From contig CAIOKC010000029.1 in the NCBI GenBank assembly GCA_903858755.1, positions 1,059 through 65,058 of the forward strand: DNA of 64,000 nucleotides, given 5' to 3'. The notes below the pieces were generated by a model that worked only from the letters and a program-made list of their open reading frames with translations, made no database searches and was not told the origin of the DNA. Below, piece by piece: positions 57 through 56,805 of the stretch (its first letter is position 1; each line of letters starts with the position of its first letter). Source of the DNA: an uncultured bacterium. GTDB taxonomy: Bacteria; Patescibacteriota; Minisyncoccia; Phycocordibacterales; UBA2100. The translations under genes were made by a program, and so were the position numbers.

Positions 57-150
57 CATTACACAACATCAAAGCAGTTTCTGAGGTGTCTGACACCTCG
101 TATCATTACACAACATCGAAGCAATTCCTGAGGTGTCTGACACCTCGTAT
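57..150. repeat. Tandem direct repeat, 2 x 47 bp plus a partial third copy, each carrying the palindrome GAGGTGTC-T-GACACCTC
   Basis: cattacacaacatcaaagcagtttctgaggtgtctgacacctcgtat (57-103) repeats as cattacacaacatcgaagcaattcctgaggtgtctgacacctcgtat (104-150), followed by the partial tcacctcgtat. It lies just 3' of the minus-strand speH stop, so it is hairpin-forming, terminator- or REP-like. Confidence 0.6.
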
Positions 151-40887: not shown

Positions 40888-41228
40888 ACACGCGATCGCG
40901 CGACCTGGAAATATTTTTTGAAATAAAAACGCGATCGTCAGATGAGTTTTTATTTTCTAAAAAGTTATCCACATTCGCACACGTATGATGCATTGCGCAG
41001 GTACATCGGTGCAATAATGAAAGAGAAAACGCGTTGTGCTGCACATCGGTGCGCAGGCGTGGGTCGAACTTAGTACTCAAAACGAAATTTATATGGCAAA
41101 GAAAAAGAAGGCAAAGAAAGCAAAGGCAAAGAAGCGCCGCTAAGCTCGCGTTTCTCTGGCTAGAGAACCAACGATCCCTCCACCCGGAGGGATCGTTGTT
41201 CGTTGGGAGGAGACCGTATCACCAAGAA

Positions 41229-41259
41229 CCCACCTAGGACACGCCGTGTCCTAGGTGGG
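41229..41259. repeat. REP1 palindrome copy a: CCCACCTAGGACACG-C-CGTGTCCTAGGTGGG
   Basis: Perfect 15-1-15 inverted repeat. The core CTAGGACACG-N-CGTGTCCTAG recurs at 43807-43827 and 44492-44512. Confidence 0.65.
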
Positions 41260-41311
41260 TTCGTGTGCGGCGCGTGTCGCGCGAGATATTCATTTGCGGT
41301 AGGATGCTCCA

Positions 41312-43810
41312 ATGGCGTTCTGGAAACGACTCTTGGGAGATGAAAATGCGGCAGCGCTCAAGCGCGCGCAATTCATCGTCGAGCGGACGAACGCGCTCGA
41401 GGAGGGGGTGCGCGCCCTTTCGGATGACGCGCTCAAAGCGAAGACGACTGCTTTCAGGGATCGCATTCAAAAAGGAGAGGCGTTGGACGATCTCGCTCCT
41501 GAAGCATTTGCGGTGGTCCGTGAGGCTTCGCGCAGGACGCTCGGTCAGCGGCATTTCGATGTGCAGCTCATCGGTGGGATGATACTGCACCAAGGGGGGA
41601 TCGCCGAGATGCGGACCGGCGAGGGGAAGACACTTGTCGCGACCTTGCCCGCATACCTCAATGCTCTGTCGGGCAAAGGCGTGCACGTCGTCACCGTCAA
41701 CGACTATCTCTCCAGGCGCGATGCGGTATGGATGGGGCAGATTTACCACGCGCTTGGGATTTCGGTCGGAGTCATCAATCACGAATCTTCCTATCTCTAC
41801 GATCCATCGCACGCGATCGACGATGCCGAGCGAGACGAACTCGGCGCTTTCAAGGTGATGCACGATTTCCTGCGACCGTGCACGCGGCATGAAGCATACG
41901 CCGCGGATATCACGTACGGCACCAACAACGAGTACGGCTTCGACTACTTGCGGGACAATCTGGAATACGAGAGCTCCAAGCTTCGTCAGCGCTTGCCGCA
42001 GACGGGAGGATACCACTTTGCGATCGTCGACGAGATAGATTCGATCCTCATCGACGAAGCGCGAACGCCGCTCATCATCTCTGCGCCCGTCTCCGACGCG
42101 GAGTCGCTCTACGGGCGCTTCGCGAATATCGCCCGCACGCTCGCGCTCGGGGAGGATTACGCGGTCGACGAGAAGCACAAGCAGATATCGCTTACGGATG
42201 CGGGTATTGAGAAGGCGCAGAAAGCGCTCGGGATCGAGAACATCTATACGGACGCGGGCATCAAATACGTGCATCATCTCGAGACCGCGACGCGCGCCGC
42301 CGCTCTTTTCAGGCGGGACAAGGATTATGTCGTACGCGACGGCGCCATCGTGATCGTCGACGAATTCACCGGAAGACTCCAGCCGGGGCGGCGATGGTCT
42401 GAGGGTCTGCATCAGGCGATCGAAGCGAAGGAGGGAGTGCTTGTCCAGCAGGAATCTCGCACGTTCGCGTCGATCACGTTCCAGAATTATTTCCGCCTGT
42501 ATGGCAAGCTCGCCGGTATGACGGGCACGGCGACGACCTCGTCGGAAGAATTCTACAAAGTGTATGGTCTCAATACCGTAGTCGTCCCCACGAACAAGCA
42601 AGCCAAGCGCAAAGACAGCGACGATCTTATATTCCAGACCGAGAACGGGAAGATGAGGGCGATTGCGCGCAGGGTGAAAGAGCTGCATGAGAAAGGGCAG
42701 CCAGTCCTTGTGGGGACCGCTTCCGTCGAGAAGAACGAGCTCCTCTCGGCGCATTTCAAGCAGGAAGGAATCCCGCACGAGGTACTGAACGCGAAGAATC
42801 ATGAGCGGGAGGGCGAGATCATCGCGCAAGCAGGGAAGAGAGGCGCGGTCACGATCGCGACCAACATGGCGGGTCGCGGTGTGGACATCAAACTCGGCGG
42901 GAATCCTTCGATCGATGCAGAGTATGAGGCAGTAAAAGACCTGGGAGGACTCTTTGTCCTCGGTACCGAACGGCACGAGGCGCGCCGTATCGACAATCAG
43001 CTTCGCGGTCGCTCCGGTCGCCAAGGAGATCCCGGCGAAACGCAGTTTTTCGTATCGCTCGAAGATCCGCTCATGCGCATTTTCGCGAACGAGACAATCA
43101 AGCGCGTGATGGGTTCGTTCAACATACCGGAAGACGAGCCGATCCATAACCCGATGATCACGAGAGCGCTCGAGAAAGCACAGACGCGCATCGAAGAATT
43201 GCATTTCGATTCGCGGAAACACGTCCTCGCCTACGACGACGTCCTCAATATCCAGCGGCAATCCGTATACGCGCGCCGCCGCATGCTCCTGACGGGAGAG
43301 CACGCTGCGCTCGACGAGGAGCTTGCGCGCATTGGTCTCGGAGATGGGGCATTCGCAGCCACAGCGGAAAAGAAAAAGAGCGAGCTCGGAGACGCGTTCT
43401 ACCCGAGCGTCCGGCGTTTCCTTCTGCAGACGGTAGATTTCCTCTGGGTGGAACATCTGGAAGCGATGGAGTATTTGAGGAGTTCGGTCAATCTTCGCGC
43501 TTACGGTCAGCGGGATCCTCTTGTGGAATACAAGAAAGAAGGGCTCCGTCTCTTCCAGACCATGGAAGAAACGTATCAGATGCAAGCCGCGCACTCCCTG
43601 GCGAGCCTCGGAGCAGCGCCACCGAGCGCTCCTGCAAGCGCTGTCAGGAAAGCAGCGCTTGCCCTCACTGCGCAACACCCAGGGGGAGGGAGGGAAGAAT
43701 ACGGTCGCAACGACAGGATCACGATCACAAACGGGACGGAGACGCGAGAGATGAAGTACAAGAAAGCGGAAGGCTTGCTTTCGCAAGGCTGGCGCATCAT
43801 CGAAAACTAG
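41312..43810 (+). CDS. secA: Preprotein translocase ATPase subunit SecA
   Basis: 832 aa. MRTGEGKTLVATLPAYLNAL (Walker A), DEIDSILIDEARTPLIIS (DEAD-like), two NBDs, preprotein cross-linking domain and helical scaffold. The stop TAG lies within REP1 copy b. Confidence 0.9.
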   Translation: MAFWKRLLGDENAAALKRAQFIVERTNALEEGVRALSDDALKAKTTAFRDRIQKGEALDDLAPEAFAVVREASRRTLGQRHFDVQLIGGMILHQGGIAEMRTGEGKTLVATLPAYLNALSGKGVHVVTVNDYLSRRDAVWMGQIYHALGISVGVINHESSYLYDPSHAIDDAERDELGAFKVMHDFLRPCTRHEAYAADITYGTNNEYGFDYLRDNLEYESSKLRQRLPQTGGYHFAIVDEIDSILIDEARTPLIISAPVSDAESLYGRFANIARTLALGEDYAVDEKHKQISLTDAGIEKAQKALGIENIYTDAGIKYVHHLETATRAAALFRRDKDYVVRDGAIVIVDEFTGRLQPGRRWSEGLHQAIEAKEGVLVQQESRTFASITFQNYFRLYGKLAGMTGTATTSSEEFYKVYGLNTVVVPTNKQAKRKDSDDLIFQTENGKMRAIARRVKELHEKGQPVLVGTASVEKNELLSAHFKQEGIPHEVLNAKNHEREGEIIAQAGKRGAVTIATNMAGRGVDIKLGGNPSIDAEYEAVKDLGGLFVLGTERHEARRIDNQLRGRSGRQGDPGETQFFVSLEDPLMRIFANETIKRVMGSFNIPEDEPIHNPMITRALEKAQTRIEELHFDSRKHVLAYDDVLNIQRQSVYARRRMLLTGEHAALDEELARIGLGDGAFAATAEKKKSELGDAFYPSVRRFLLQTVDFLWVEHLEAMEYLRSSVNLRAYGQRDPLVEYKKEGLRLFQTMEETYQMQAAHSLASLGAAPPSAPASAVRKAALALTAQHPGGGREEYGRNDRITITNGTETREMKYKKAEGLLSQGWRIIEN

Positions 43811-44518
43811 GACACGCCGTGTCCTAGTTTTCGATGTCGAGGCTACGCTCTGCTTTCGCGCGATCAGAAATAATCGAGCGTATTTCGTTCTCGTACCTTC
43901 TTCTCGATCCCACCATATCTGTAAGCAGAGCGGTGTCGATTATGGAAGGGAAGTTTCGCACCCCGCAGTAGTCGAGGTGGCTGCTCCACCGATATTCCAG
44001 CAGATACTTCAGCGCTCTGTCTGGGTCGCGCACTCCGCCTGAGCGCCACGCGGGGAACTTGTGATCAAGTGGATTCAGATGCACATAATAGGGGATGTAC
44101 ATAAAGTGCGCGTCGCGTTGCAGCGGTATCTTTTTTGAGGGTCCTTGCCATAGCACGCCTGAGCGATCGTATTTTTCGTTGAAGTATTTCGCGTATCCCA
44201 TGTTGAATTTTTGCAGAAAACGAGAGATACCATGTTCCGTGCGCTCTGAAAGAATAAGGTGGTAATGGTTTTCCATGAGGCAGAATGCATGGATGCTGAC
44301 GAGCCGTTCCCGACTCTTCTCCGCATGTCGTCCGGGAAGGATGTAATTTTGCGCCAGCTTTTCGTCGTTGAAGGCATATAAATCATGCAGGAACCGCAAA
44401 CGGTCTTTGTCGTCGAGCACGACGGCGCGTTTCTCCACTCCGCGGTTTAGCACGTGGAACAACTCTTCTGCCATACCCCCATTGTACCAAACTAGGACAC
44501 GGCGTGTCCTAGTTTGGT
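43801..44518 (-). mobile_element. REP/RAYT unit 1: Y1 HuH transposase gene flanked by two REP1 palindromes
   Basis: REP1b (43801-43833, 16-1-16 palindrome) and REP1c (44486-44518) bracket the RAYT ORF. Confidence 0.6.
43824..44474 (-). CDS. REP-associated tyrosine transposase-like protein (Y1 HuH, COG1943/IS200-like fold)
   Basis: Start at ATG 44472-44474 (MAEELFHVLNRGVEKRAVV). HuH motif MENHYHLIL. Conserved sequence AHFMYIPYYVHLNPLD. Conserved C-terminal sequence RWSSHLDY. Confidence 0.65.
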   Translation of the reverse strand: MAEELFHVLNRGVEKRAVVLDDKDRLRFLHDLYAFNDEKLAQNYILPGRHAEKSRERLVSIHAFCLMENHYHLILSERTEHGISRFLQKFNMGYAKYFNEKYDRSGVLWQGPSKKIPLQRDAHFMYIPYYVHLNPLDHKFPAWRSGGVRDPDRALKYLLEYRWSSHLDYCGVRNFPSIIDTALLTDMVGSRRRYENEIRSIISDRAKAERSLDIEN

Positions 44519-44600
44519 GGGGGTAGATGCATAAGGATGATCTCAAGGATGATCACACGGAGGGTCTATAGAATGCGGCGCGGAGATTTGGTACAGTACG

Positions 44601-46040
44601 ATGATGTCAGAGTACGTCCCGACAATAGGTCTTGAGATTCACGCGGAATTGAAGACGCAGACAAAGATGTTCTGCGACTCAAAGAATGATCCAGACGAGA
44701 AACGACCGAATGTAAACGTGTGCCCAATCTGTCTCGCGCATCCTGGCACGCTTCCCGTGATCAACAGGGAAGCGGTACGGCACGTGCTTCGCGTCGGGGT
44801 CGCTCTCGGGAGCAAGCTCGCCGATTACACGGAATTCGACCGGAAGAATTATTTCTATCCTGATCTCCCAAAGGGGTATCAGATCTCCCAATTTGAATAT
44901 CCGCTGGTGAGCGGGGGAGAGCTGCGGGGAGTCGCGATTACTCGCGTGCACCTTGAAGAGGATACCGCAAGCTCTATTCACGATGAGGCGACCAGCTCGA
45001 CCACTATCGACTTCAACCGCTCTGGCGTCCCCTTGATGGAGCTTGTGACGGAGCCGGTCATGCAGAGCGCCCGAGAGGCAGGCGCGTTTGCCCGAGAATT
45101 GCAGCTGCTTCTCCGCACGCTCGGCGCGAGTGATGCAAACATGGAAAAGGGTGAGATGCGCGTGGAAGCGAATGTGTCCGTCGCGAAGAAGGGGGAGCGA
45201 AGCGCGGCGTATGTAGAAATAAAGAATCTTAATTCATTTCGCGCGATGGAGAAGGCGATACAGTATGAGATACAGCGTCAGACGAAGATGATTGAAGCGG
45301 GTGAAGTGCTCGTGAAGCAAACGCTTGGATGGGATGAAAATAAGCAAGCGACGTTTCCGCAGCGCACCAAAGAGGGAAGCGCAGACTACCGATACTTTCC
45401 TGATCCAGATTTGCCGTCGCTCAAGATCTCTGAGATCGAGGATCTTGACAGAGACAGACTTGTATCGTCCATCCCAGAATTGCCTCAAGTACGCCGAGAG
45501 CGGTATATCGCCCTCGGCGTGAGGGCGGAAGATGCCGATAGCTTCGCCAGCACGCCTCTCGGTGCATTCTTCGAGGAGGTACTAGCGGGAGAGAACGACG
45601 CCTCCAAGATTCTCCTTGCGGCAAACTACATCGCGAACGATCTGGTGAATAATATCCGAGATACCGATGCTCGAGATACGGAGGAAATAGCCGAGATTCC
45701 GATATCGGCACGTGATTTCAAGGATATAATCGATCTGATCGCATCAGAGCGTATATCTTCGCGCTCCGCAAAGGACATCCTTGCTGAGACCATACTCACG
45801 AAGAAAGCGCCACTCTCGATAGCCGAAGAAAGACAGCTCTTCCAGGTATCGGACAACTCTCTCATTGATGCAACGATAGAAACGGTATTCTCAGAGAATC
45901 CTGCTGCTCTTCAAGATCTTGTGTCCGGGAAAGGTGCTGCTCTCGAATATTTGGTCGGGCAGTGTATGAAGATTCTCCGGGGGGCAGGGAATCCGGCGAT
46001 CATCCGAGAGCGTATCAAAGTGAAAGTTGTACAAAAGTAG
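44601..46040 (+). CDS. gatB: Asp-tRNA(Asn)/Glu-tRNA(Gln) amidotransferase subunit B
   Basis: PTIGLEIHAELKTQTKMFC...NVCPICLAHPGTLPV...FDRKNYFYPDLPKGYQISQ are canonical GatB motifs. 479 aa. Confidence 0.9.
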   Translation: MMSEYVPTIGLEIHAELKTQTKMFCDSKNDPDEKRPNVNVCPICLAHPGTLPVINREAVRHVLRVGVALGSKLADYTEFDRKNYFYPDLPKGYQISQFEYPLVSGGELRGVAITRVHLEEDTASSIHDEATSSTTIDFNRSGVPLMELVTEPVMQSAREAGAFARELQLLLRTLGASDANMEKGEMRVEANVSVAKKGERSAAYVEIKNLNSFRAMEKAIQYEIQRQTKMIEAGEVLVKQTLGWDENKQATFPQRTKEGSADYRYFPDPDLPSLKISEIEDLDRDRLVSSIPELPQVRRERYIALGVRAEDADSFASTPLGAFFEEVLAGENDASKILLAANYIANDLVNNIRDTDARDTEEIAEIPISARDFKDIIDLIASERISSRSAKDILAETILTKKAPLSIAEERQLFQVSDNSLIDATIETVFSENPAALQDLVSGKGAALEYLVGQCMKILRGAGNPAIIRERIKVKVVQK

Positions 46041-46101
46041 GCAATCCACAGACTGCATATTCGCTCTGTTCTCGGGCGAGAATCGGCTTTATACTGTATC
46101 T

Positions 46102-47034
46102 ATGTCTGACGAGATCTCTGTAGAAGGGAAGGAGTACGTTTCTTCCAAGAAGGCATCCCGCACGACTGGCTACTCCCAGGATTATATTGGTCAGCTTGCC
46201 CGCAAAGGGGTGATTGATGCGCGGCGGGTGGGCGGTCTTTGGTACATCTTGATGGATTCTCTCGAATTGCATAAAAAGAGGTCCGAGGAGTTCTCTCCCG
46301 AGCCACCGAAGCGAGATTCCGAGATTGCGCAGGACACGCTCCTTTCATTCGACGGGCGAGATTTTGTCTCGGCATCGCGCGCAGCTGAGATCACCGGCTA
46401 CAATCAGGATTACGTTGGTCAGCTCGCTCGCTCCGGTGCAGTGCTTTCAAAGCAGGTAGGCAACCGCTGGTTTGTCGATCGAGAAGCACTCCGAGACCAT
46501 AAGGCAGAAAAAGACTCTCTTCTTGCTGCTGTACAATCGCAGTCGGTAGGTCTCAAGAAGAGTCTAGAAGTGCCGCAGACCCCCTACGAACACAGCTATG
46601 CCGGCGCAGGTCCTTTTCTTACCTATACCAAGGATGATCAAGACCTTTTTCCCACGTTGTCTGCTCAGGATTCAGGTGATTCGCTCGGCAGTCTTTCTCA
46701 TGAACCGGAGGAGGTACATCAGGTCCCTATACATGTACTCAACGCACGCGAAATCGTCTCGATATCGAGGAAGTCGTTCGTTAAGTACCCAATAGGTCGT
46801 ACGCACGGAAAGACTATATTTTACGGCGCTTCTGCGGCAGCGGCTTTGACGATCGTCATTGTGCTTTCTTTTGGATTTGGTTCTCTCAAAGAACGTTCGA
46901 TGTATACTCTCACGACTGTCCGAAGCACGGCATCCGTAGGACCTTTGCTTGAAAGCGCTAGCGGCTTCCTGGATGCTTTCGGGGGTTGGCTTGAGCACCT
47001 ACTTGTCCCCGAGATTTCATACCGGCGGAGATAG
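46102..47034 (+). CDS. Membrane-anchored protein with two N-terminal excisionase-type HTH (HTH_17-like) repeats
   Basis: Start at ATG 46102 (MSDEISVEGKEYVSSKKASRTTGYSQDYIGQLARKGVIDARRVGGLWYI). A second copy is FVSASRAAEITGYNQDYVGQLARSGAVLSKQVGNRWFV. TM helix TIFYGASAAAALTIVIVLSFGFGSL near the C-terminus. Confidence 0.55.
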   Translation: MSDEISVEGKEYVSSKKASRTTGYSQDYIGQLARKGVIDARRVGGLWYILMDSLELHKKRSEEFSPEPPKRDSEIAQDTLLSFDGRDFVSASRAAEITGYNQDYVGQLARSGAVLSKQVGNRWFVDREALRDHKAEKDSLLAAVQSQSVGLKKSLEVPQTPYEHSYAGAGPFLTYTKDDQDLFPTLSAQDSGDSLGSLSHEPEEVHQVPIHVLNAREIVSISRKSFVKYPIGRTHGKTIFYGASAAAALTIVIVLSFGFGSLKERSMYTLTTVRSTASVGPLLESASGFLDAFGGWLEHLLVPEISYRRR

Positions 47035-47436
47035 AAGGGGGAGATCGGACCCTTGCAGCATCTTTTCTCAAACTCTCGAGACGCAAAGACCTTCACAGGG
47101 GTCTTTTCGCCAATCCACTGCCGAGATATGCCGAGATACCTATGTAAATCGTATCTCGGATCGACTAATTCTCATATCGTCTCTTACAGATTCGAGCGAT
47201 TCTTCTGGGCAGCTACCACCACAGGTCCCGTATTCCGTGGCTTTTTTACCGACCCCCCAACCAAGGCTTACCATTGCGCCGCATCTAAGCCGTTTATCTG
47301 ATTTTCTTTCTGACCCCATCTTCTTTTACGATCCTAAATCTCCGCATTGTTCTTATCCCCATGTTTTTGCACCGGATATCAACACGATATCCCAAAAAAG
47401 ACCTAGAATACTAGATAAGTCGTGCATCCGAACATC

Positions 47437-50400: not shown

Positions 50401-52239
50401 ACCGCGACTTCGTCGTTCTCATCCGCTGGCGTCCTCACACTCGCTGGATCCTTGGACGGTCCACTTCAGGCAAACGCTGGCGTAGTATCCGCGACCACTT
50501 CAATCGGACTTCTCTACGGCGGTACGGGAGCGACGAGTGCGAGCGGCGCGCGCACGAATCTCGGTGCGGCGGCATTGGGAGCAAATTCAGACATCACATC
50601 ACTCTCTGGTCTCACGACCGCGCTCTCAGCTGCGCAGGGCGGCACCGCAACGACTACATGGCTCACTGGCGGTATCGTCTTTTATGACGGCTCGACACTC
50701 TCTCAAGGAGCGGTAGCGGCGGATTTCTTCCTCGACCGTACCAACAAACGCCTCGGTGTGGGCACCTCCACTCCATGGGCGCAGCTGAGCGTGAATCCAA
50801 ACGCGCTCGGCAGCGGCGTGCCGGAATTCGCCGTCGGTTCCTCGACCGCGACGCACTTCCTGATCGACGGCGCAGGCAAAGTCGGCATCGGCACCACCAC
50901 GCCCGGCTCGCTCTTCTCCATACAAAACTCCGCCAACTTCGTCGCGAGCGCCACTTCCACTATCTACAACGGTCTTTCCACGCCGTACCTCTCCGTCACC
51001 GGCACATCTGCCACGAGCACCTTCGCCAATGGCATCAATCTCTCGGGCGGCTGCTTTGCCGTGAATGGCACCTGCGTCGGGAGCGGCGGCGCGAGCCTTT
51101 TCACCGACGGCGGCGCGACATCGTATCTCACTTCCACGAGCGACAATCTTGCGGTCGGCACCTCGACCGCATATTCCAAGCTCTCCGTCTGGGGCGCGGG
51201 TACCGGTACAGGGCAGCTCTTCGAACTCACGAACAGCGCTTCGACCACCATCGCGAAATTCCTCGACAACGGCACCGGATACTTCCTCGGCAATATCGGC
51301 ATCGGCACCACCTCGCCCTATCGCAAACTCTCACTCACCGACGCCGTCTCGACGGCGCAAGTCGCGATCGCATACGATGGTACGCGCTACACCGAATTCC
51401 TCACCAATTCGGTCGGCGATCTCGTCATAAATCCGCAGGGCGACGACGCCTTTCTGAACGACGACAACCTCTGGGTCTGCACCGGCGGCTCCTGCCCTTC
51501 GAACAATCCGACAGGCACGGGCAATCTCGTCGTCGAGAACAAACTCGCGATCGGCACCACCACGCCCGATTCGAAGCTCGTGATCGAGACGCAGGACGCG
51601 ACCACCGACTTCCTCCGCATCGCATCTTCGACCGCGCAGGCGCTCCTCGTCTTCGACGAGCGCGGCTACTTGGGCGTGGGCACTTCGACGCCGACGAAGC
51701 AGTTCTCGATAGACAAAGGTCTGTATGTCGGCAACGGTCAGCCCTCCGCGATCGGCACCGCGACCTCCACCATCCAGGGCGACCTCCTCATCACCGGCAA
51801 GCTCGATGTATCGACCATCGACCCCGTATACACCATCGACGGTATGAAATATGCGACATACGGGGCTTCCACCATCGGCATTCGCGAAGAGATGCTCTCG
51901 ACCGTGCGGCTCGATTCGATAGGCGAGAGCGGCAAATACGAGTACCGTATTCCGTTTAGCAGCGTGAAGAAAGATTCGGATGAATGGCTCTTTTATCAAA
52001 TCACGGATTTTGGCAGCGACTGGAGCAATCTCGTCGTTTCGCTCACGCCGTCGTTCGAAGGGAGCGTGTACTACAAGAAAGATATCGCCGCGAATGCGCT
52101 CGTCATCTATGCAGATGCACCGGGCGAGATCTCGATGCGCCTCTCTGCGTATCGCTACGATTTCACGAAGTGGGGCAACGTCCGACCGGATCAGGACGAC
52201 GCTTCGTTCCCCGGGCACGTGATCGATTCGAAGAAATAG
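47437..52239 (+). CDS. Giant (~1600 aa) membrane-anchored fibrous surface protein with an N-terminal HTH_17-like motif, S/T/A/G-rich repeats and tail-fibre-like GIGTT(S/T)P repeats
   Basis: Start taken at ATG 47437 (MSDEIFFDGVKYISASEAGDRSNLSRDYIARLCRVGTIRGRRIGTHWYV), paralogous to the 46102 gene N-terminus. TM at ~180 (LTALSLAVMLTLGTYAFV). Two ~50-aa near-identical internal repeats (LNTANANSWTALQSFANASS...AYFGATATSSFSSAG). Repeats KVGIGTTTPGSLFSI / NIGIGTTSPYRKLSL / KLAIGTTTPDSKLVI / YLGVGTSTPTKQFSI. Confidence 0.6.
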   Translation: MSDEIFFDGVKYISASEAGDRSNLSRDYIARLCRVGTIRGRRIGTHWYVQEGSLSSFLMSKEYSRSQRQESLSEERLREYHGASADSAIPAMRKTTSGIFAPVPAQTRGFSLQQHPIVRTHAYDVKKLFEQTLAKNGGTTYASASRIGSAPAGFAHAALAHIPASVHVPAHIISPLAEFIHKLTALSLAVMLTLGTYAFVDPQYARYAADTIASDVGEALGAYRASTGGGIGVAAYRAQSQLAAAAENPIGTFASIQTAFGNGFQTIARSVNSRIDDLVYDIAFPENLVRSLGIVDSSRARVSIGVAPFASSTASATPVNTVQSKQPHTVINQPVVERIVETQRILSAGGITEEILHARLQQLDAKLSAQMYGLTAANSSPVFVSAPQYAPAPVIALAQATRIDQLASVDISGSTWVGGSISGASISGSSVSATTLSSSGDTSLATTTVSGSLAITSGTASTNPFVVKDNTGTTVFAVANDGTLTTSVSSSTSSYSQLLITGSATATTLYASNLIVSQLASTTNVLTSNSTTTNATSTNLFSTLAHFTTGIIDALTATAATITGLIATNATTTNATSTNLAVTNLTSFAAPIAPYFTATSTSIASTLPYASTTAISGTTAQFTTASSTNLVVSGAATLSSLASDSLLYANASKNAAAASVGSSLVFSSGTLSLNTANANSWTALQSFANASSSKFSVFDSAYFGATATSSFSSAGALTLATPLVQGSGGTGFSSYTAGDILYADNIGTVSKLPVGSAGQVLKVQAGLPAWGTDNTGGGGGGSGSSMWATTTLNLIYPVDTSYPVAIGSNSTSTPNSIFEVSGQQYISSKLGIATTSPVTALSVGGNAYLTGGLGVGVFNSSAGTLQTSGAAVIGGSLTVNGLSGAVSASGGVLSAGTLAIANGGTGTTTAPVGHLLYGGSSAYQSVATSSLAVGSSLSVSGTLGYQVGGSNATFSLNTANANSWTALQSFANASSTLFSNIGTAYFGATATSSFSSAGVLTLAGSLDGPLQANAGVVSATTSIGLLYGGTGATSASGARTNLGAAALGANSDITSLSGLTTALSAAQGGTATTTWLTGGIVFYDGSTLSQGAVAADFFLDRTNKRLGVGTSTPWAQLSVNPNALGSGVPEFAVGSSTATHFLIDGAGKVGIGTTTPGSLFSIQNSANFVASATSTIYNGLSTPYLSVTGTSATSTFANGINLSGGCFAVNGTCVGSGGASLFTDGGATSYLTSTSDNLAVGTSTAYSKLSVWGAGTGTGQLFELTNSASTTIAKFLDNGTGYFLGNIGIGTTSPYRKLSLTDAVSTAQVAIAYDGTRYTEFLTNSVGDLVINPQGDDAFLNDDNLWVCTGGSCPSNNPTGTGNLVVENKLAIGTTTPDSKLVIETQDATTDFLRIASSTAQALLVFDERGYLGVGTSTPTKQFSIDKGLYVGNGQPSAIGTATSTIQGDLLITGKLDVSTIDPVYTIDGMKYATYGASTIGIREEMLSTVRLDSIGESGKYEYRIPFSSVKKDSDEWLFYQITDFGSDWSNLVVSLTPSFEGSVYYKKDIAANALVIYADAPGEISMRLSAYRYDFTKWGNVRPDQDDASFPGHVIDSKK

Positions 52240-52246
52240 TATCAGA

Positions 52247-52978
52247 ATGATCGATTTACGAAATCACTCATCATATGGAGCTGTATCATGTGCTGAACAG
52301 GGGAGTCGATAAGCGAACTATCTTCATGCGTTCGGCGGATTATGCACGTTTCGTGCACGATATGTATGAATTCAATGACTCAAAACCAGCTAAGAATGCA
52401 AGTCGTAGCTTCGACCCATCAATGAGTGATTTCTCAATGAGTGATTTCGCAAATCGCTCATTGGAGCGGAAAAGAATTGTCGATATACATGGGTGGTGCC
52501 TGATGAAGAATCACTATCATTTGTTGGTATCAGAGCGGGTTGAGGGCGGTCTGACACTTTTTATTCGAAAGCTTAACGTGGGATACGCCAACTACTTCAA
52601 CGACGCATACAAACGGAGCGGTGCCCTTTTCCAGGGCAGGACGAAAAAGATACAGATCGCATCTGATGCGCATTTTCTCCACATGCTCCACTACATCCAT
52701 CTCAATCCGCTTGATTATGTCGCTGGCGCGAAATCCTGGCGCGCCGGTGGAATCTCTGATGTGCGCGCCGCCCGTGCGCAGTTGCAAAAGTATCGATGGA
52801 GCAGCTATCTCGACTACTGCGGTAAAAAGAACTTTCCGTCTGTTATTACAACGGACTTCATGCGCTCGTCGCTCGGCGACATCGAGAGAAAGACAATGGA
52901 GTATTTTGGAAAAATGGATCTGCCAGACATGAAGCACTACGTGCTCGAGTAGTATGAGTGATTTACGAAATCACTCAT
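52247..52978 (+). mobile_element. REP/RAYT unit 2: RAYT gene with upstream (imperfect), internal (in-frame) and downstream REP2 palindromes ATGAGTGATTT-NNN-AAATCACTCAT
   Basis: Copies at 52247-52271 (two mismatches), 52437-52461 (inside the CDS, one mismatch, plus an extra half-site at 52422-52433) and 52954-52978 (perfect). The perfect copy overlaps the start codon of the next gene. Confidence 0.6.
52275..52952 (+). CDS. REP-associated tyrosine transposase-like protein (Y1 HuH) paralog 2
   Basis: MELYHVLNRGVDKR...MKNHYHLLV (HuH)...AHFLHMLHYIHLNPLDY...YRWSSYLDY. Carries an in-frame ~11-aa insertion (SMSDFSMSDFANRSLE) encoded by REP2-like sequence, relative to paralog 1. Confidence 0.65.
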   Translation: MELYHVLNRGVDKRTIFMRSADYARFVHDMYEFNDSKPAKNASRSFDPSMSDFSMSDFANRSLERKRIVDIHGWCLMKNHYHLLVSERVEGGLTLFIRKLNVGYANYFNDAYKRSGALFQGRTKKIQIASDAHFLHMLHYIHLNPLDYVAGAKSWRAGGISDVRAARAQLQKYRWSSYLDYCGKKNFPSVITTDFMRSSLGDIERKTMEYFGKMDLPDMKHYVLE

Positions 52979-55900
52979 TGCGAAAGGGTGCGACTCGGGC
53001 TGATATAATGAGCGGAATGGGAGAAATGGGAGAGAATGTGCGACGTCTATTCGCGCTCGCGTTTGTGTTGCCGCTCTTTTTTGTTTTCGCGTACTTACTA
53101 CCCACGAGCGACACAGGACCCGTCCAGTTTGCCGACGCGCAGCTGGGGCGGTATGAAGTGGATTATTCGCTGCGGTTCAACGACGACGATAGTCCGTACC
53201 TCACCAAGACGTTTACGCAGGTCGGCTCGACGACGAAGTGGACTTTCAGTACATGGGTGAAGCCGGGCAATTTGAGCATAGACAGGTATCTCCTGGACGC
53301 CTATGTCGACGCGAACAACAGGACGTATATCGCGCTTGTGTCTTCAAATGCGCTGCAATTCGCCGACTACAGCGGCGGCTCCGCGAGATGCAACAAAATA
53401 ACATCCGCGCTCTTCCGTGACCCCGCCGCGTGGACGCACATCGTGGTTGCGGTGGATACGACACAGGCGACCGCCGCAAATAGGAATCGCATTTATGTGA
53501 ACGGCACGGAGATCACCTCTTTCAGCACTGACACGAATTGCACGCAAAATATCTCGACGTGGATAACCGACGACAACGACAATGCCGGGAGCAACGTAGT
53601 GCACAATCTCGGCAGGTATGGAGGAGGGTCGGCTTATTTCGACGGCTACCTTTCCGAAGCGTACCTCGTCGACGGGCAGCAGCTCACTCCCTCCTCCTTC
53701 GGCTTTTCCGATTCCAACGGCTACTGGCGTCCGAAGGCGTATCTCGGCACTTCAAGCGGCGCGAATAGTTTTTTCGGCACCAACGGCTTTTATTTCAACT
53801 TCGCCTCGACGACCGCGCTCGGCTGGAACCTCGCCTCGACCAGCGCCGCAACTGCCGCATGGACAGCGACCAATCTCGATGCGACGGATCAGACGATAGA
53901 CACGCCGTCGCACACATTCGCCGCTTTCAACAGTCTCGATAAATCAGGGACTGCCGGTACGTACAGCAACGGTAACTTGGTTTGGCTGAACTCGGCGGCT
54001 ACTGGCAACTACGCCCAAGCATACGGGTCAATTTCGATGACGAGTGGAAAATGGTACGCCGAATTCTACATGAATGATGTTACTAATGGTGCACCCGGGT
54101 TTATATTAGGAACAACAAATCCAGGCACTAACAGGTATTTGGGTCAAGATACTTACTCGTACTCGTATATAAGTGACGGCCGCAAGGTTAACAATAGTTC
54201 TTTTACAGCATACGGTGCTTCCTTCACAGTGGGAGATACCGTAAGTGTTACGATAGACGCGGATGCTGGGTCAGTGACCTTTTATAAAAACTGTTCAAGC
54301 CAAGGTGTAGCGTTTAGCGGCCTGACAGGACCGTTCCGCTTTGCCATCGACGGGGAAATAAACGGCGGGGCGAATGCGAATTTCGGACAACTCAAACACG
54401 CAACTTCTACGGCAACAGCGAACACCTTTAGAGACAGCGCTGGGGGGCACTTCATGTGTGCTCCGCCCTCCGGCTACAAAGCCCTCTCGACCGCCAATCT
54501 GCCCGACGTGGCGATACAGAAGCCGGCGAATTATTTCGACGCCGTCGCGTATACGGGAGACGCCGGAGCGACGAAGTCGATCTCGTCTCTCGCTTTTGCT
54601 CCGAGTCTTGTCTGGCTCAAAAACAGGTCGAGCGCGTATAGCCACACGCTTTTCGACGCGATACGAGGCGCGGGGAGCGGCATGTGCCTTTTTTCCAATG
54701 GAACAAACGCGGAAGGCGGCAACTGCGATTCGACCTACGGCTACCTTTCCTCCTTTGACTCGCTCGGATTTACCGTCACCAAAGGCAGCGACGCGACGAG
54801 CTACACCAACGGCTCAGGGCAGAACTACATCGCCTGGAACTGGAAAGAATCCGCAACGAGCGGGTTTGATATCGTCACCTACACCGGGGATGGGAATTCG
54901 TCCAAGACCGTAGGGCATTCGCTCGGGAGCGCGCCCGACTTTGTGATCCAGAAAAGCAGGAACGCGACCGGAGGCTGGCCAGTATATCATCGCTCGCTCG
55001 GCGCCACGGGTGCCGTGCAATTGGAATCCACCGGCGCGTTCAACGTGAGCAGCACATATTGGAACGACACGGCACCGGACGCGACAAACATAACGATAGG
55101 GTCGGGTCTCAACACCAATGGAACCACATATATTTTGTATGCGTTTGACGAAAAAGAAGGCTTCTCCAAATTCGGCTCATACACCGGCAACGGCTCCGCC
55201 GACGGACCGTTCGTTTACACGGGCTTCAAGCCGCGCTTTATCATGTTCAAGCGTACAGATACCGCTTCTGCCAATGCAGACTGGTTCATTCTTGATACGT
55301 CTCGTCTTTCATATAATCCAAACAATCTGTTTCTTTTTCCTGATTTGACCAATGCCGAGAACGCAGCTGGCCTACATTCTGCCGATTTCCTATCGAACGG
55401 ATTCAAGGTGCGCAATACTGGCGATGGCATGAACGCCTCCGGCGGCACCTACGTCTACGCCGCCTTCGCCGAGCAGCCGTTCAAACTTTCGGCGACCAAC
55501 AGTTTCTCGTGGTACGCGAATCTCTTCGGCGCCTCGGGCGAGACCATATTTACGAAAGCAGTGTCTATTACCGGCAATCTCTCGGTCCAATACCAGCTTT
55601 CCAAGGGCGCGGGCACGTTCGTCATCGACCACCCGCTTGATCCGAAAAATAAACTGCTCTATCACTCGTTCGTCGAATCACCGGATCAGAAAAATATCTA
55701 CGATGGGCTAGCGGAATTAGACGAAAATGGCGAGGCTGTCGTGGAGCTGCCGGATTATTTCCTCGCCCTCAACACCGACTATCGCTACCTCGCCACACCC
55801 ATAGGCGAGCCCATGCCTGATTTGCACCTCGACCGCGGCGTCGTGCGCCGCTGGCTTGGGCTTATCGGCGCGCCTGCATTCAAGCTCTCGGGGGGAGTGC

Positions 55901-56046
55901 CCGGCGGGCGCGTCTCCTGGCAGGTATCCGGCGTGCGCCAAGATCCGTATGCCCTCGACCACCCCATCACTCCCGAGGCGGAAAAAGGACCAGACCAGCT
56001 CGTCGACAAAGGGGAGTACCTCCACCCGGAATTCTATGCCAACTAA
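52954..56046 (+). CDS. Giant (~1030 aa) membrane-anchored LamG/concanavalin-A-like jelly-roll protein with a conserved ~170-aa C-terminal module
   Basis: The first 9 codons (MSDLRNHSL) are the REP2 palindrome itself. The true start may be ATG 53008. TM LFALAFVLPLFFVFAYLL. WTFSTWVKPGNLS...AWTHIVVAVD...NRIYVNGTEI is the LamG-type signature, and a second jelly-roll-like segment lies around 54000-54450. The C-terminal module GAGTFVIDHPLDPKNKLLYHSFVESPDQKNIYDG... is shared with the genes at 56806 and 57384. Confidence 0.55.
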   Translation: MSDLRNHSLRKGATRADIMSGMGEMGENVRRLFALAFVLPLFFVFAYLLPTSDTGPVQFADAQLGRYEVDYSLRFNDDDSPYLTKTFTQVGSTTKWTFSTWVKPGNLSIDRYLLDAYVDANNRTYIALVSSNALQFADYSGGSARCNKITSALFRDPAAWTHIVVAVDTTQATAANRNRIYVNGTEITSFSTDTNCTQNISTWITDDNDNAGSNVVHNLGRYGGGSAYFDGYLSEAYLVDGQQLTPSSFGFSDSNGYWRPKAYLGTSSGANSFFGTNGFYFNFASTTALGWNLASTSAATAAWTATNLDATDQTIDTPSHTFAAFNSLDKSGTAGTYSNGNLVWLNSAATGNYAQAYGSISMTSGKWYAEFYMNDVTNGAPGFILGTTNPGTNRYLGQDTYSYSYISDGRKVNNSSFTAYGASFTVGDTVSVTIDADAGSVTFYKNCSSQGVAFSGLTGPFRFAIDGEINGGANANFGQLKHATSTATANTFRDSAGGHFMCAPPSGYKALSTANLPDVAIQKPANYFDAVAYTGDAGATKSISSLAFAPSLVWLKNRSSAYSHTLFDAIRGAGSGMCLFSNGTNAEGGNCDSTYGYLSSFDSLGFTVTKGSDATSYTNGSGQNYIAWNWKESATSGFDIVTYTGDGNSSKTVGHSLGSAPDFVIQKSRNATGGWPVYHRSLGATGAVQLESTGAFNVSSTYWNDTAPDATNITIGSGLNTNGTTYILYAFDEKEGFSKFGSYTGNGSADGPFVYTGFKPRFIMFKRTDTASANADWFILDTSRLSYNPNNLFLFPDLTNAENAAGLHSADFLSNGFKVRNTGDGMNASGGTYVYAAFAEQPFKLSATNSFSWYANLFGASGETIFTKAVSITGNLSVQYQLSKGAGTFVIDHPLDPKNKLLYHSFVESPDQKNIYDGLAELDENGEAVVELPDYFLALNTDYRYLATPIGEPMPDLHLDRGVVRRWLGLIGAPAFKLSGGVPGGRVSWQVSGVRQDPYALDHPITPEAEKGPDQLVDKGEYLHPEFYAN

Positions 56047-56053
56047 CCTCCAC

Positions 56054-56793
56054 AGCAAGGTCCGACCTTGCTCAGACGCCTGGGTCGGCGTATTCGAGCC
56101 AGTCATGCACGGATTTTCTGAACGTAGCAGGGCTTTCAAAATACTCGGGCAGTGCTGTTGTGTCGACAATTTTTCTTTCGGGACGCTTTGTGCCGGCGTA
56201 GTCCGCGAAGCTCGAGTAGCGAAATTTCTCCAGGAATTCTTTTGTCCGAGATTGGTCTTTGATGCCGTTCTCTTTCCACTTCGAATCGATCAGCTTTACC
56301 GGATTCAAGTGGATGTACGATACGAGATACTTAAGATACCGATCGTTGCCCGCATGCTCGGCTTTATACTTGCCCTGGAAGAGCGCGCCAACTCGCTGGT
56401 AGCGCATATTAAAATACATTGCGTACGCGGTCGTGAGCTTCTGCATAAAAGTACTGATCCCGGAGTCGGAGCGTTCTCGTGCGAGAATGTGGAAGTGATT
56501 CGGCATCAGACAATAGGCGCATATGTCGATAAGCGGCTCGCCTCGGGTCTCGCCGAGCGCCGCGCTGAGCAGGGTTTTGCCTTTTGCGCGGCTGAGGTTG
56601 TCGAGCCGGATGGTTTCGGAGCCGTTGGCGAGGTAGAGGAGAGCAAGAAATCGCTCGTAGTCGGCTTTATTTTGGAATATTTTGCGTTTTTCCGTGCCGC
56701 GATTGTACAGGTGATAATATTCCTCTGGCGCGAACTCGATCTGTCTCGTCATGCCGCCAATGATACCATGGGACGAGCAAGGTCCGACCTTGC
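56054..56793 (-). mobile_element. REP/RAYT unit 3: RAYT gene flanked by REP3 palindromes AGCAAGGTC-C-GACCTTGCT
   Basis: Perfect 9-1-9 palindromes at 56054-56072 (overlapping the RAYT stop codon) and ~56775-56793. A third copy lies in a GT4 gene at 18867-18885. Confidence 0.6.
56072..56752 (-). CDS. REP-associated tyrosine transposase-like protein (Y1 HuH) paralog 3
   Basis: MTRQIEFAPEEYYHLYNRGTEKR...MPNHFHILA (HuH)...YLVSYIHLNPVKL...FRYSSFADY. Coordinates follow the ORF track. My own codon count placed the ATG 1 nt lower. Confidence 0.65.
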   Translation of the reverse strand: MTRQIEFAPEEYYHLYNRGTEKRKIFQNKADYERFLALLYLANGSETIRLDNLSRAKGKTLLSAALGETRGEPLIDICAYCLMPNHFHILARERSDSGISTFMQKLTTAYAMYFNMRYQRVGALFQGKYKAEHAGNDRYLKYLVSYIHLNPVKLIDSKWKENGIKDQSRTKEFLEKFRYSSFADYAGTKRPERKIVDTTALPEYFESPATFRKSVHDWLEYADPGV

Positions 56794-56805
56794 TATGGGA
56801 TACGT

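What the first reader, a model, noticed from the sequence alone, without database searches (positions are those of the whole stretch)
41229..56793. Three divergent RAYT-type (Y1 HuH) transposase paralogs, each flanked by its own private REP palindrome
Genes at 43824..44474 (-), 52275..52952 (+) and 56072..56752 (-) all share YHV/LNRG...NH(Y/F)H(L/I)L...Y(V/I)HLNP...(R/Y)(W/S)SS(H/Y/F), the COG1943 RAYT signature. They are only ~35-45% identical to each other. Each sits between inverted copies of a different palindrome. REP1 is CTAGGACACG-N-CGTGTCCTAG, 3 copies. REP2 is ATGAGTGATTT-NNN-AAATCACTCAT, 3 full copies plus a half-site. REP3 is AGCAAGGTC-C-GACCTTGCT, 3 copies. Three non-cross-reacting RAYT/REP pairs coexisting within 13 kb is a compact example of RAYT/REP diversification, and suggests each transposase recognises only its own hairpin.
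Basis: seen in the sequence. Interest (0 to 1): 0.7.

Follow-up and report, generated by a model that had tools for sequence, protein, structure and literature searches.

The report
Three RAYT-like transposases with private palindromes
A Patescibacteria (CPR) genome carries three diverged copies of a domesticated-looking single-strand DNA transposase, each bracketed by its own perfect hairpin-forming palindrome; this is the known RAYT/REP arrangement, but in a phylum and a form not described in the literature I could search.

Summary
Three Y1 HuH genes (43824-44474 -, 52275-52952 +, 56072-56752 -) are 36-48% identical. Each lies between two copies of its own palindrome, and each palindrome has a third copy.

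The RAYT/REP reading is mostly right.
- The AlphaFold model's best solved-structure match is E. coli RayT bound to a REP hairpin.
- The HuH histidines and Tyr130 are invariant across homologues.
- In 80 homologue loci from other genomes, 60 of 77 testable genes carry the same repeat on both flanks (random control 12 of 206). The repeat is usually a perfect palindrome that differs by genome and co-varies with the protein.
- Of 98 REP1-type copies in metagenomes, 37 lie next to a RAYT and at least 33 are solitary. Many solitary copies sit in frame inside UvrB, GuaA, PheT and other genes.
- The R1 lineage stays next to secA across genomes whose SecA is 55-79% identical, which indicates vertical inheritance. 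Its cassette changes side, and one genome has an empty site.

Three divergent RAYTs with three repeat families in one genome is already known from Pseudomonas fluorescens SBW25. What differs here:
- perfect short-loop palindromes that supply the stop codon and sit at the promoter;
- a copy inside the transposase's own coding sequence;
- low copy number;
- palindrome arms that stay symmetric beyond the family consensus.

Exclusive hairpin recognition is untested.

The parts
41226..41262 (.). Solitary REP1 palindrome (18-nt perfect arms, core 41234-41254), 50 nt upstream of secA.
   Evidence: In L004, L098 and L160 the R1-type cassette occupies this same position upstream of secA, and the distal copy there shares the outer arm GAACCCA.
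43798..43836 (.). REP1 palindrome (19-nt perfect arms) between the convergent genes secA and R1. Its TAG/CTA supplies both stop codons. It is flanked by A4/T4, so it resembles a bidirectional terminator.
   Evidence: DNA hairpin -18.8 kcal/mol, z = -11. SecA ends IVE* or IVQ* where no palindrome abuts it (L146, L004) and IVEN*/IIEN* where one does.
43824..44474 (-). R1, a 216-aa Y1 HuH transposase of the RAYT kind.
   Evidence: AlphaFold model pLDDT 89. Foldseek top hit 4er8_A. HuH at H70/H72 and Tyr130.
44481..44510 (-). Promoter-like site for R1. The -35-like AGGACA lies inside the palindrome arm, followed by an 18-nt spacer and an extended -10 (TG-n-TACAAT) 6 nt before the ATG.
   Evidence: one of only 3 promoter-like sites in 16 kb. 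Family-wide, a -10-like hexamer abuts the upstream palindrome in 18 of 32 loci against 5.9% of control windows. The function is inferred.
44486..44518 (.). REP1 palindrome (16-nt perfect arms) upstream of R1. Its loop is G, against C in the other two copies.
52247..52271 (.). REP2 copy upstream of R2, ending 3 nt before the ATG. It is imperfect: 2 mismatches in the left arm.
   Evidence: only -2.5 kcal/mol.
52275..52952 (+). R2, a 225-aa Y1 HuH transposase of the RAYT kind.
   Evidence: The identical protein occurs in the same context in five other metagenome contigs.
52419..52461 (+). REP2 copy inside the R2 coding sequence (52437-52461, read as MSDFANRS), preceded by a 15-nt tandem duplication that creates the half-site.
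   Evidence: It lies in the variable loop between helix 1 and the HuH strand. Homologues L011, L016, L017, L023, L031, L039, L044, L052, L057 and L058 carry their own palindrome at the same place.
52954..52978 (.). Perfect REP2 copy 1 nt after the R2 stop codon. It overlaps a spurious ATG; gene callers start the next gene at 53008.
56054..56072 (.). REP3 copy between the convergent ORF 53008-56046 and R3. It touches the R3 stop codon.
56072..56752 (-). R3, a 226-aa Y1 HuH transposase of the RAYT kind. It gives the best Pfam match of the three.
   Evidence: (45 bits).
56776..56794 (.). REP3 copy upstream of R3, in the 53-nt divergent spacer before ORF 56806. A TATCAT hexamer lies between it and the R3 start codon.
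18866..18886 (.). REP3 copy (10-nt perfect arms) inside a GT4 glycosyltransferase coding sequence, read in frame as (A)ARSDLA.
   Evidence: In 120 homologues the segment has the same length, so this is a same-length replacement and not an insertion.

Best explanation
These are three anciently diverged, chromosomally resident RAYT-like Y1 (HuH) single-strand DNA transposases. Each is paired with a cognate perfect palindrome that behaves like a low-copy REP element.

Proposed mechanism:
1. The palindrome folds into a hairpin when the DNA is single-stranded, for example at a replication fork or in a transcription bubble.
2. The cognate protein binds the hairpin.
3. The HuH-held metal and Tyr130 cut and rejoin DNA at the foot of the hairpin.
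4. This copies or moves the palindrome to new sites. Only copies in the one stop-free reading frame survive inside genes.
5. Occasionally the whole palindrome-gene-palindrome cassette is moved or deleted.

The two flanking copies also serve the gene itself. The upstream copy sits in the -35/spacer position of the promoter, and the downstream copy provides the stop codon and a terminator-like hairpin. In many lineages a third copy sits in a tolerant loop of the coding sequence. This layout suggests that the protein regulates itself.

Shown here: the fold, the catalytic motifs, the flanking geometry, the co-variation of protein and palindrome, solitary copies in related genomes, vertical linkage to secA, cassette presence/absence, and the cassette changing side.

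Inferred only: binding, cleavage, specificity and autoregulation.
For: Protein:
- Pfam Y1_Tnp is above threshold for all three.
- The AlphaFold model has pLDDT 89. Its best solved-structure match is 4er8_A, E. coli RayT on a REP hairpin, aligned over 185 columns. The IS608 and ISDra2 TnpA matches cover about 125 columns.
- H70, H72 and Y130 are invariant in 50 homologues and align with RayT H59/H61/Y115.

Family-wide architecture:
- 60 of 77 homologue loci share a repeat of at least 12 nt on both flanks, against 12 of 206 random controls.
- 34 of 80 loci have perfect palindromes with identical cores. The upstream copy starts 28-111 nt before the start codon, and the downstream copy usually lies at or close to the stop codon.

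Co-variation:
- Mantel correlation between protein distance and palindrome-core distance is r = 0.25, reached by 8 of 5000 permutations.
- Core mismatches rise from 2.6 of 8 for close proteins to 4.5 of 8 for distant ones.

Dispersal:
- 98 REP1-type copies were found in 80 metagenome loci: 37 next to a RAYT, 33 safely solitary, 28 too close to a locus end to judge.
- 18 of the 33 solitary copies lie deep inside ORFs and are always read as PFRTRRVLNG. The hosts include UvrB, GMP synthase, PheT, an HhH-GPD glycosylase, Dus, a reverse transcriptase and a hydrolase.

Vertical inheritance and cassette dynamics:
- R1-type genes lie next to secA in at least 15 loci.
- RAYT identity tracks SecA identity: 69/79%, about 61/77%, about 52/60%.
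- The cassette is downstream of secA in some genomes and upstream in others.
- L146 has the same gene order but no RAYT, and carries one hybrid palindrome.

Other:
- Only distant relatives occur on plasmids (13 of 72,556 records) and phages (1 record).
- A -10-like hexamer abuts the upstream palindrome in 18 of 32 loci, against 5.9% of control windows.
Against: - NCBIfam's RAYT equivalog model scores only 34-46 bits against a cut-off of 80.
- Sequence-only searches of the PDB find nothing significant. The hhalign match to RayT has E = 0.019 and low probability.
- Within the window each palindrome has just one copy beyond the flanking pair, so enrichment across this genome could not be measured.
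- Only the REP1 type was scanned in metagenomes. REP2 and REP3 dispersal rests on one copy each.
- The REP3 copy in the glycosyltransferase is a same-length replacement, which simple transposition does not explain.
- The metagenome scan retrieves only exact matches, so decayed copies are invisible and the apparent conservation is biased.
- The promoter control used mostly coding windows.
- No biochemical evidence exists.
Confidence: 0.7

Rival explanations
1. Each palindrome-gene-palindrome unit (about 700-740 bp) is an autonomous IS200-like insertion sequence. The palindromes would be its left-end and right-end hairpins, and the solitary palindromes would be excision or recombination scars.
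For: - The cassette is about the size I recall for IS200 (my own knowledge, not checked here), with hairpins at both ends.
- The R1-type cassette sits on different sides of secA in related genomes, and L146 shows an empty site.
- The fold also matches IS608 and ISDra2 TnpA.
Against: - No near-identical copies exist: the three paralogs are 36-48% identical.
- The R1 lineage stays beside secA while SecA diverges from 79% to 55% identity, and the two co-diverge.
- At least 33 solitary copies, 18 of them in frame in housekeeping ORFs, are not explained as scars.
- The two ends are identical perfect palindromes, not distinct left and right ends.
- No tnpB gene is present.
- Only distant relatives occur on plasmids and phages.
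Confidence: 0.12
2. The palindromes are primarily cis-regulatory hairpins (promoter operator, terminator, mRNA structure). Gene conversion or template switching keeps them identical, and the Y1 protein does not mobilise them.
For: - Their positions relative to the start and stop codons are fixed across the family.
- A -10-like hexamer abuts the upstream copy.
- The copy at 43798-43836 looks like a bidirectional terminator.
- The glycosyltransferase copy is a same-length replacement, as conversion would give.
- The outer arms stay symmetric beyond the family consensus, as expected from hairpin-templated correction.
Against: - Identical cores of 19-21 nt at unlinked sites deep inside UvrB, GuaA, PheT and other genes cannot be promoters or terminators.
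- The palindrome co-varies with the protein.
- The closest solved structure is an enzyme caught binding exactly this kind of hairpin.
- Conversion between 20-nt sequences at unlinked sites has no obvious donor-recipient homology.
Confidence: 0.1
3. The protein is a fully domesticated hairpin-binding factor with a host function, such as processing hairpins at replication forks or controlling secA and neighbouring genes. The palindromes would be its binding sites, not mobile elements.
For: - The family is large: 918 clusters at E <= 1e-30.
- Linkage to secA is ancient.
- Palindromes lie in the 5' region of secA.
- RAYTs in general show housekeeping-like properties (PMC5581495).
Against: - The HuH histidines and the catalytic Tyr are invariant, which argues for retained DNA cleavage.
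- Solitary copies are scattered through unrelated ORFs.
- No functional data exist.
Confidence: 0.08

Closest known systems
E. coli RayT (TnpA-REP, YafM) with REP/BIME sequences: the REPtron (PDB 4ER8)
   Same: - Y1 HuH fold; it is the best structural match.
- The HuH histidines and catalytic Tyr align.
- The gene is bracketed by the hairpin-forming repeat that the enzyme binds.
- The gene is chromosomal and vertically inherited.
   Different: - Identity is only about 14%, and the proteins score below NCBIfam's equivalog cut-off.
- These proteins are about 215-226 aa, against 165 aa for RayT, with an extra C-terminal helical region.
- E. coli REPs, as I recall them, are imperfect, carry a GTAG tag, number in the hundreds and are extragenic (the GTAG tag and high copy number are in PMC3733652). 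Here they are perfect palindromes with 1-3-nt loops, few in number, and often inside genes.
TIRYT/TIRtron class of Di Nocera et al. 2013 (PMC3733652)
   Same: - Tyrosine transposases flanked by their own terminal repeats unrelated to GTAG REPs. Some repeats are self-complementary, some overlap the 5' or 3' end of the gene, and the repeat families are moderate in size.
- Several distinct genes with distinct repeats can occur in one genome (Koribacter versatilis has three).
- The non-CPR relatives retrieved here (L067, L071, L075-L077, L082) are flanked by GGGTCAGG/GGGGTCA-type inverted repeats, most of which fit or nearly fit the published GGGGWSAS motif.
   Different: In the CPR clade the repeat is a short perfect palindrome present as a complete hairpin at each end. 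It is also found inside the transposase gene and in frame in housekeeping genes.
Pseudomonas fluorescens SBW25: three RAYTs with three REPIN families (PMC3116915)
   Same: Three distinct single-copy RAYT genes in one genome, each associated with its own repeat family.
   Different: Here the three genes lie within 13 kb of a small-genome organism, and the repeats are single short palindromes at low copy number.
IS200/IS605 family TnpA (IS608, ISDra2)
   Same: Same catalytic fold and single-Tyr HuH chemistry on single-stranded hairpins. The element is compact with hairpins near both ends.
   Different: The paralogs are not multi-copy, the two ends are not distinct, no tnpB is present, and the R1 lineage is inherited vertically beside secA.
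Rickettsia palindromic elements and intragenic REPs (PMC3733652)
   Same: Palindromic repeats inserted in frame in functional genes, including DNA-repair genes such as uvrB.
   Different: As I recall, RPEs are about 100-150 bp and have no identified transposase (not checked here). The palindromes here are 19-40 bp, and a cognate Y1 gene is identifiable beside them.

Membership tests
Y1 HuH transposase superfamily (Pfam PF01797) | Match to the Y1_Tnp profile above the gathering score. | tested here: met
   30.4, 24.5 and 44.9 bits against a cut-off of 23.
Y1 HuH transposase superfamily (Pfam PF01797) | His-hydrophobic-His motif on a beta strand and one catalytic Tyr on a following helix. | tested here: met
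   H70, H72 and Y130 are invariant in 50 sequences. The model places them on strand 70-77 and helix 122-133. They align with RayT H59/H61/Y115.
RAYT (REP-associated tyrosine transposase) | Membership of the curated equivalog NF047646. | tested here: not met
   34-46 bits against a cut-off of 80.
RAYT (REP-associated tyrosine transposase) | Structure closer to RayT than to IS200/IS605 TnpA. | tested here: met
   4er8_A ranks first (E = 3e-5, 185 aligned columns). The TnpA hits have E >= 3e-4 and about 125 columns. The margin is modest.
RAYT (REP-associated tyrosine transposase) | The gene is flanked on both sides by the same palindromic repeat. | tested here: met
   All three genes in the window. 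60 of 77 homologues against 12 of 206 controls.
RAYT (REP-associated tyrosine transposase) | The flanking repeat is over-represented across the genome, mainly in extragenic space. | tested here: inconclusive
   The window shows one extra copy per family, two of the three inside genes. Related genomes have at least 33 solitary REP1-type copies, more than half inside ORFs. The rest of this genome was not available.
RAYT (REP-associated tyrosine transposase) | Single copy or distinct paralogs only, vertically inherited, rare on plasmids. | tested here: met
   Paralogs are 36-48% identical. R1 is linked to secA and co-diverges with it. There are 13 distant plasmid hits and 1 phage hit. CPR plasmids are scarce in that collection, so the last point is weak.
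GTAG-tagged REP | An unpaired GTAG motif at one end of an imperfect palindrome. | tested here: not met
   The palindromes are perfect and have no unpaired tag. REP1 has CTAG or TTAG inside the stem; REP2 and REP3 have nothing similar.
IS200/IS605 insertion sequence | Several near-identical copies per genome, distinct left and right ends, often with tnpB. | tested here: not met
   No near-identical copies in 64 kb. The two ends are identical palindromes. No tnpB-sized ORF is adjacent.
RAYT/REP cognate specificity | Each enzyme binds and cuts only its own hairpin. | not testable with these tools
   Only indirect evidence: protein and palindrome co-vary, and the three palindromes share no arm sequence.

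The most novel reading that the evidence does not exclude
Patescibacteria carry a distinct, ancient and vertically inherited clade of Y1 enzymes in which the cognate palindrome is built into the gene's own promoter, its coding sequence and its stop codon, forming a self-regulating unit.

The same palindromes colonise essential genes in the single stop-free frame, which reads identically on both strands. They also grow symmetrically outward by hairpin-templated copying.

If so, this would be a tractable natural system for studying three things: how hairpin specificity and enzyme co-evolve, how palindromes are made perfect, and how selfish DNA is tolerated inside the proteins of minimal genomes.
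Probability: 0.3. Interest if true: 0.65.

Novelty: new variant of a known kind. Interest (0 to 1): 0.45.

Why it matters
RAYT/REP systems are the best-known case of a transposase kept by its host over long periods, but how enzyme and hairpin co-evolve is still unclear.

- This clade supplies hundreds of natural enzyme-hairpin pairs: 918 protein clusters at 50% identity (E <= 1e-30), each expected to have its own short perfect palindrome, as in most homologues examined. Three pairs lie side by side in one genome. That suits specificity-swap experiments and the design of sequence-programmable single-strand DNA tools.
- CPR genomes are small, yet they tolerate palindrome-encoded peptides inside UvrB, GuaA, PheT and SecA's C-terminus. 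This bears on genome streamlining and on annotation, because of spurious starts and altered stop codons.
- The secA-linked cassette with an empty site gives a dated natural example of cassette gain or loss at palindromes.

Tried and rejected
- Exact-protein look-up of R1 found nothing. Look-ups of R2 and R3 gave only short contigs with the same context, so they yielded no comparison.
- Sequence-only PDB searches were uninformative: the A1 profile gave E of about 1, and R3 gave no hit at all. I used structure prediction instead.
- A chance origin for the palindromes is rejected: none appeared in 100 shuffles.
- The idea that the internal REP2 copy is a recent self-insertion is rejected. The peptide M.DL(R/V)..S is present at that place throughout the R2 clade, even where the DNA is no longer palindromic (L015, L019).
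- The idea that the REP3 copy in the glycosyltransferase is an in-frame insertion is rejected. All 120 homologues have the same length there.
- Insertion into pre-existing terminator hairpins could explain the symmetric outer arms. It does not fit the secA/R1 junction, where the mirrored arm rewrites SecA's C-terminus. Hairpin-templated correction (quasi-palindrome template switching, from my own knowledge) fits better but is untested.
- A palindrome-only terminator role is rejected because of copies deep inside ORFs.
- Literature searches for RAYT or REP in Patescibacteria/CPR found no description. The only hit is one KEGG annotation, in an archaeon.
- Genome-wide counts for this organism were impossible. 

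Full report
**1. What is in the window**

All three pass Pfam's Y1_Tnp threshold. They are 48% (R1/R2), 36% (R1/R3) and 38% (R2/R3) identical, and tblastn finds no further paralog in the 64 kb.

The three palindromes are exactly where stated, with three copies each. None occurred in any of 100 dinucleotide-preserving shuffles. As single-stranded DNA they fold into perfect hairpins of -7 to -19 kcal/mol. The exception is the upstream REP2 copy, which has two arm mismatches and folds at only -2.5 kcal/mol.

- The REP1 copies are longer than stated, with perfect arms of 16-19 nt.
- The copy at 43798-43836 supplies the TAG stop codons of both secA and R1.
- The third REP2 copy lies inside R2's own coding sequence. 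It follows a 15-nt tandem duplication that creates the 'half-site'.
- The third REP3 copy lies at 18866-18886, inside a GT4 glycosyltransferase gene.
- Judged by the loop base, only the REP1 pair is inverted. The REP2 and REP3 pairs are direct.

**2. What the proteins are**

The organism is a Patescibacteria (CPR) bacterium close to Kaiserbacteria, going by the names attached to homologues.

NCBIfam's RAYT equivalog is the only NCBIfam hit, but it scores far below its cut-off (34-46 bits against 80). Sequence searches of the PDB are uninformative.

An AlphaFold model of R1, built on a 50-sequence alignment, is confident (pLDDT 89, pTM 0.86). Its best solved-structure match is 4er8_A, E. coli RayT bound to a REP hairpin, aligned over 185 columns. 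ISDra2 and IS608 TnpA follow, at about 125 columns.

H70, H72 and Y130 are invariant across the 50 sequences. In a profile alignment with E. coli RayT they fall on EHMH (H59/H61) and on Y115 of DYIYINP. From memory, Y115 is the catalytic tyrosine of RayT.

The family is large: 918 clusters at 50% identity with E <= 1e-30, and 13,613 with E <= 1e-10.

**3. Flanking palindromes are a family property**

I fetched 80 homologue loci from one-genome-per-species assemblies.
- In 60 of 77 testable loci the two flanks of the gene share a repeat of at least 12 nt. Random placements give 12 of 206.
- In 34 of 80 loci the two flanks carry perfect palindromes with identical cores. The upstream copy starts 28-111 nt before the start codon. 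The downstream copy usually lies at or close to the stop codon.

The palindrome differs from genome to genome but follows the protein clade:
- R1-like genes have ..GGACA(C/T)(G/C)-N-.. palindromes.
- R2-like genes have ATG...GA.TT-ACG-.. palindromes.
- R3-like genes have ..GAGGTC-N-GACCTC.. palindromes.

Protein distance and palindrome-core distance correlate (Mantel r = 0.25; 8 of 5000 permutations reach it). Mean core mismatches rise from 2.6 of 8 to 4.5 of 8 with protein distance.

Loop orientation is mixed across loci, so 'inverted' is not a conserved property.

The more distant non-CPR relatives (Nitrospirota, Campylobacterota and others) are flanked by GGGTCAGG/GGGGTCA-type inverted repeats. 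Most fit or nearly fit the GGGGWSAS motif of the published TIRYT class (PMC3733652).

**4. The palindromes occur away from the gene, often inside genes**

A metagenome scan for TAGGACACG-N-CGTGTCCTA returned 82 stretches. Of these, 80 loci were available to analyse; they hold 98 copies.
- 37 copies lie beside an R1-type gene.
- 33 are safely solitary, with at least 850 nt on both sides and no RAYT.
- 28 are too close to a locus end to judge.

Of the 33 solitary copies, 18 lie deep inside long ORFs. They are always in the one stop-free frame, which reads PFRTRRVLNG on either strand. Pfam identifies the hosts as UvrB, GMP synthase, PheT, an HhH-GPD glycosylase, Dus, a reverse transcriptase and an alpha/beta hydrolase.

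One metagenome contains three different UvrB orthologues with the insert. The roughly 35 contigs from that sample therefore represent several genomes, at something like ten sites each. That is low copy number by REP standards, but it is dispersal.

Intragenic REPs, including copies in uvrB, have been described in other phyla (PMC3733652).

**5. Inheritance and cassette dynamics**

R1-type genes lie directly beside secA in at least 15 loci whose SecA is 55-79% identical to the window's. RAYT identity tracks SecA identity: 69/79%, about 61/77%, about 52/60%. That is vertical, housekeeping-like inheritance, as reported for RAYTs generally (PMC5581495).

The cassette is not fixed in position:
- It is downstream of secA in the window and in L093, L091, L143, L121, L163, L133 and L138.
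- It is upstream of secA in L004, L098, L160, L134, L109, L130 and L149.

The window keeps a solitary REP1 upstream of secA, in the position the cassette occupies in the second group, with the same outer arm GAACCCA.

L146 has the same gene order but no RAYT. It carries one hybrid palindrome whose left arm matches the distal copy of L004 and whose right flank matches the proximal copy. That is the product expected from recombination between the two flanking palindromes, or the empty site before a gain.

SecA ends IVE* or IVQ* where no palindrome abuts it, and IVEN*/IIEN* where one does.

Only distant relatives (below 35% identity) occur on plasmids (13 of 72,556 records) and phages (1 record).

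**6. Features that go beyond the textbook picture**

(a) A copy inside the transposase gene. R2 and ten homologues carry their own palindrome in the variable loop between helix 1 and the HuH strand. These are L011, L016, L017, L023, L031, L039, L044, L052, L057 and L058. L057 and L058 have a second internal copy further on. In the R2 clade the encoded peptide persists even where the DNA has decayed. The site is therefore ancestral and evolves in concert with the flanks.

(b) Promoter placement. A -10-like hexamer starts within -6 to +14 nt of the end of the upstream palindrome in 18 of 32 loci, against 5.9% of control windows. For R1 the scan finds AGGACA (inside the arm), an 18-nt spacer and TG-n-TACAAT, 6 nt before the ATG. 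This suggests an operator-like role and possibly a leaderless transcript.

(c) Symmetric outer arms. Beyond the REP1-type family consensus (15 nt), the arms remain complementary with 66-80% probability per further step at positions 16-20, against 25% expected. The bases there differ from copy to copy, and arms reach 28 nt. Repeated sampling of orthologous sites inflates this somewhat. Hairpin-templated correction of quasi-palindromes, a mechanism I know from the E. coli literature, is my best guess. It is untested.

(d) Same-length replacement. The REP3 copy in the glycosyltransferase replaces a segment of the same length: 120 homologues have LAA(D/E)L(K/G)V.. where the window has LAARSDLAG. 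Simple insertion does not explain it.

**7. Mechanism, known relatives and verdict**

The best-supported reading (confidence 0.7) is three RAYT-like Y1 enzymes, each with a cognate palindrome. The enzyme would bind the palindrome as a single-stranded hairpin and cut and rejoin it with the HuH metal site and Tyr130. This spreads the palindrome and occasionally moves or deletes the palindrome-gene-palindrome cassette. The flanking and internal copies would double as promoter, terminator and operator elements.

Binding, cleavage, exclusivity and autoregulation are inferred, not shown.

The rivals are less likely for the reasons listed with each:
- an autonomous IS200-like element (0.12);
- purely regulatory hairpins homogenised by conversion (0.10);
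- a fully domesticated hairpin-binding factor (0.08).

The central idea is not new. P. fluorescens SBW25 has three RAYTs with three REPIN families (PMC3116915). Repeat-specific REPtrons and TIRtrons with several distinct genes per genome are described in PMC3733652.

I found no description of this system in Patescibacteria. The perfect-palindrome architecture with in-gene copies is a distinct variant. I therefore rate it a new variant of a known kind, of moderate interest.

Noticed in passing
window 57-150: The 47-bp tandem repeat (2 copies, 93% match) carries in each unit a perfect palindrome GAGGTGTC-T-GACACCTC. It is in the same style as the R3-type palindromes (..GTC-N-GAC..). It may be the repeat of a fourth RAYT outside the window.
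   Followed up: partly
window 10573-10599: A perfect palindrome with 13-nt arms, AAATACAGCAGTC-T-GACTGCTGTATTT, in a stretch that reads as open coding sequence (translated by eye as EKYSSLTAVFD; the ORF itself was not checked). There is one copy in the window. It may belong to another repeat family.
   Followed up: no
window 18866-18886: The REP3 copy in the GT4 glycosyltransferase is a same-length replacement of a conserved segment, not an insertion. The arms extend imperfectly to 20 nt. How a 19-nt exact copy got there without a length change is unexplained.
   Followed up: yes
window 55600-58130: R3 sits between genes that share a C-terminal module of roughly 150 aa (..GSGTFVIDHPL.P.NKLLYHSFVESP..VSWQV(S/T)GVR.DP..). 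The module occurs at the end of ORF 53008-56046 (DUF7483 plus SPRY), in ORF 56806-57387, and in ORF 57243/57378-58130. No Pfam family matches the module.
   Followed up: partly
window 57479-57542: A 12-nt tandem repeat (5.3 copies) encodes a tyrosine-rich YYQS run near the start of ORF 57243-58130.
   Followed up: no
window 41080-41200; L004 and L146 equivalents: A tiny lysine-rich ORF (MAKKKKAKKAKKK..HR in L004) followed by a 13-bp-stem terminator-like hairpin is conserved upstream of the secA palindrome site in three genomes.
   Followed up: no
L146 11066-11580: In the genome that lacks the R1 cassette, the secA-gatB spacer holds an unrelated ORF of about 130 aa. This spacer seems to be a recurrent landing place for extra genes.
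   Followed up: no
window 52954-53007: The downstream REP2 palindrome begins with ATG and opens a spurious 5' extension of the next gene. Gene callers on five contigs start that gene at 53008.
   Followed up: yes
L080 3989-5403: A Nitrospirota relative has two tandem copies of a RAYT-like gene, with a 102-nt direct repeat spanning the gene start. It looks like a local duplication.
   Followed up: no
L036 5601: An extra copy of the R3-type palindrome of that Saccharibacteria genome falls within the span of the neighbouring gatB match. It may be another intragenic copy.
   Followed up: no
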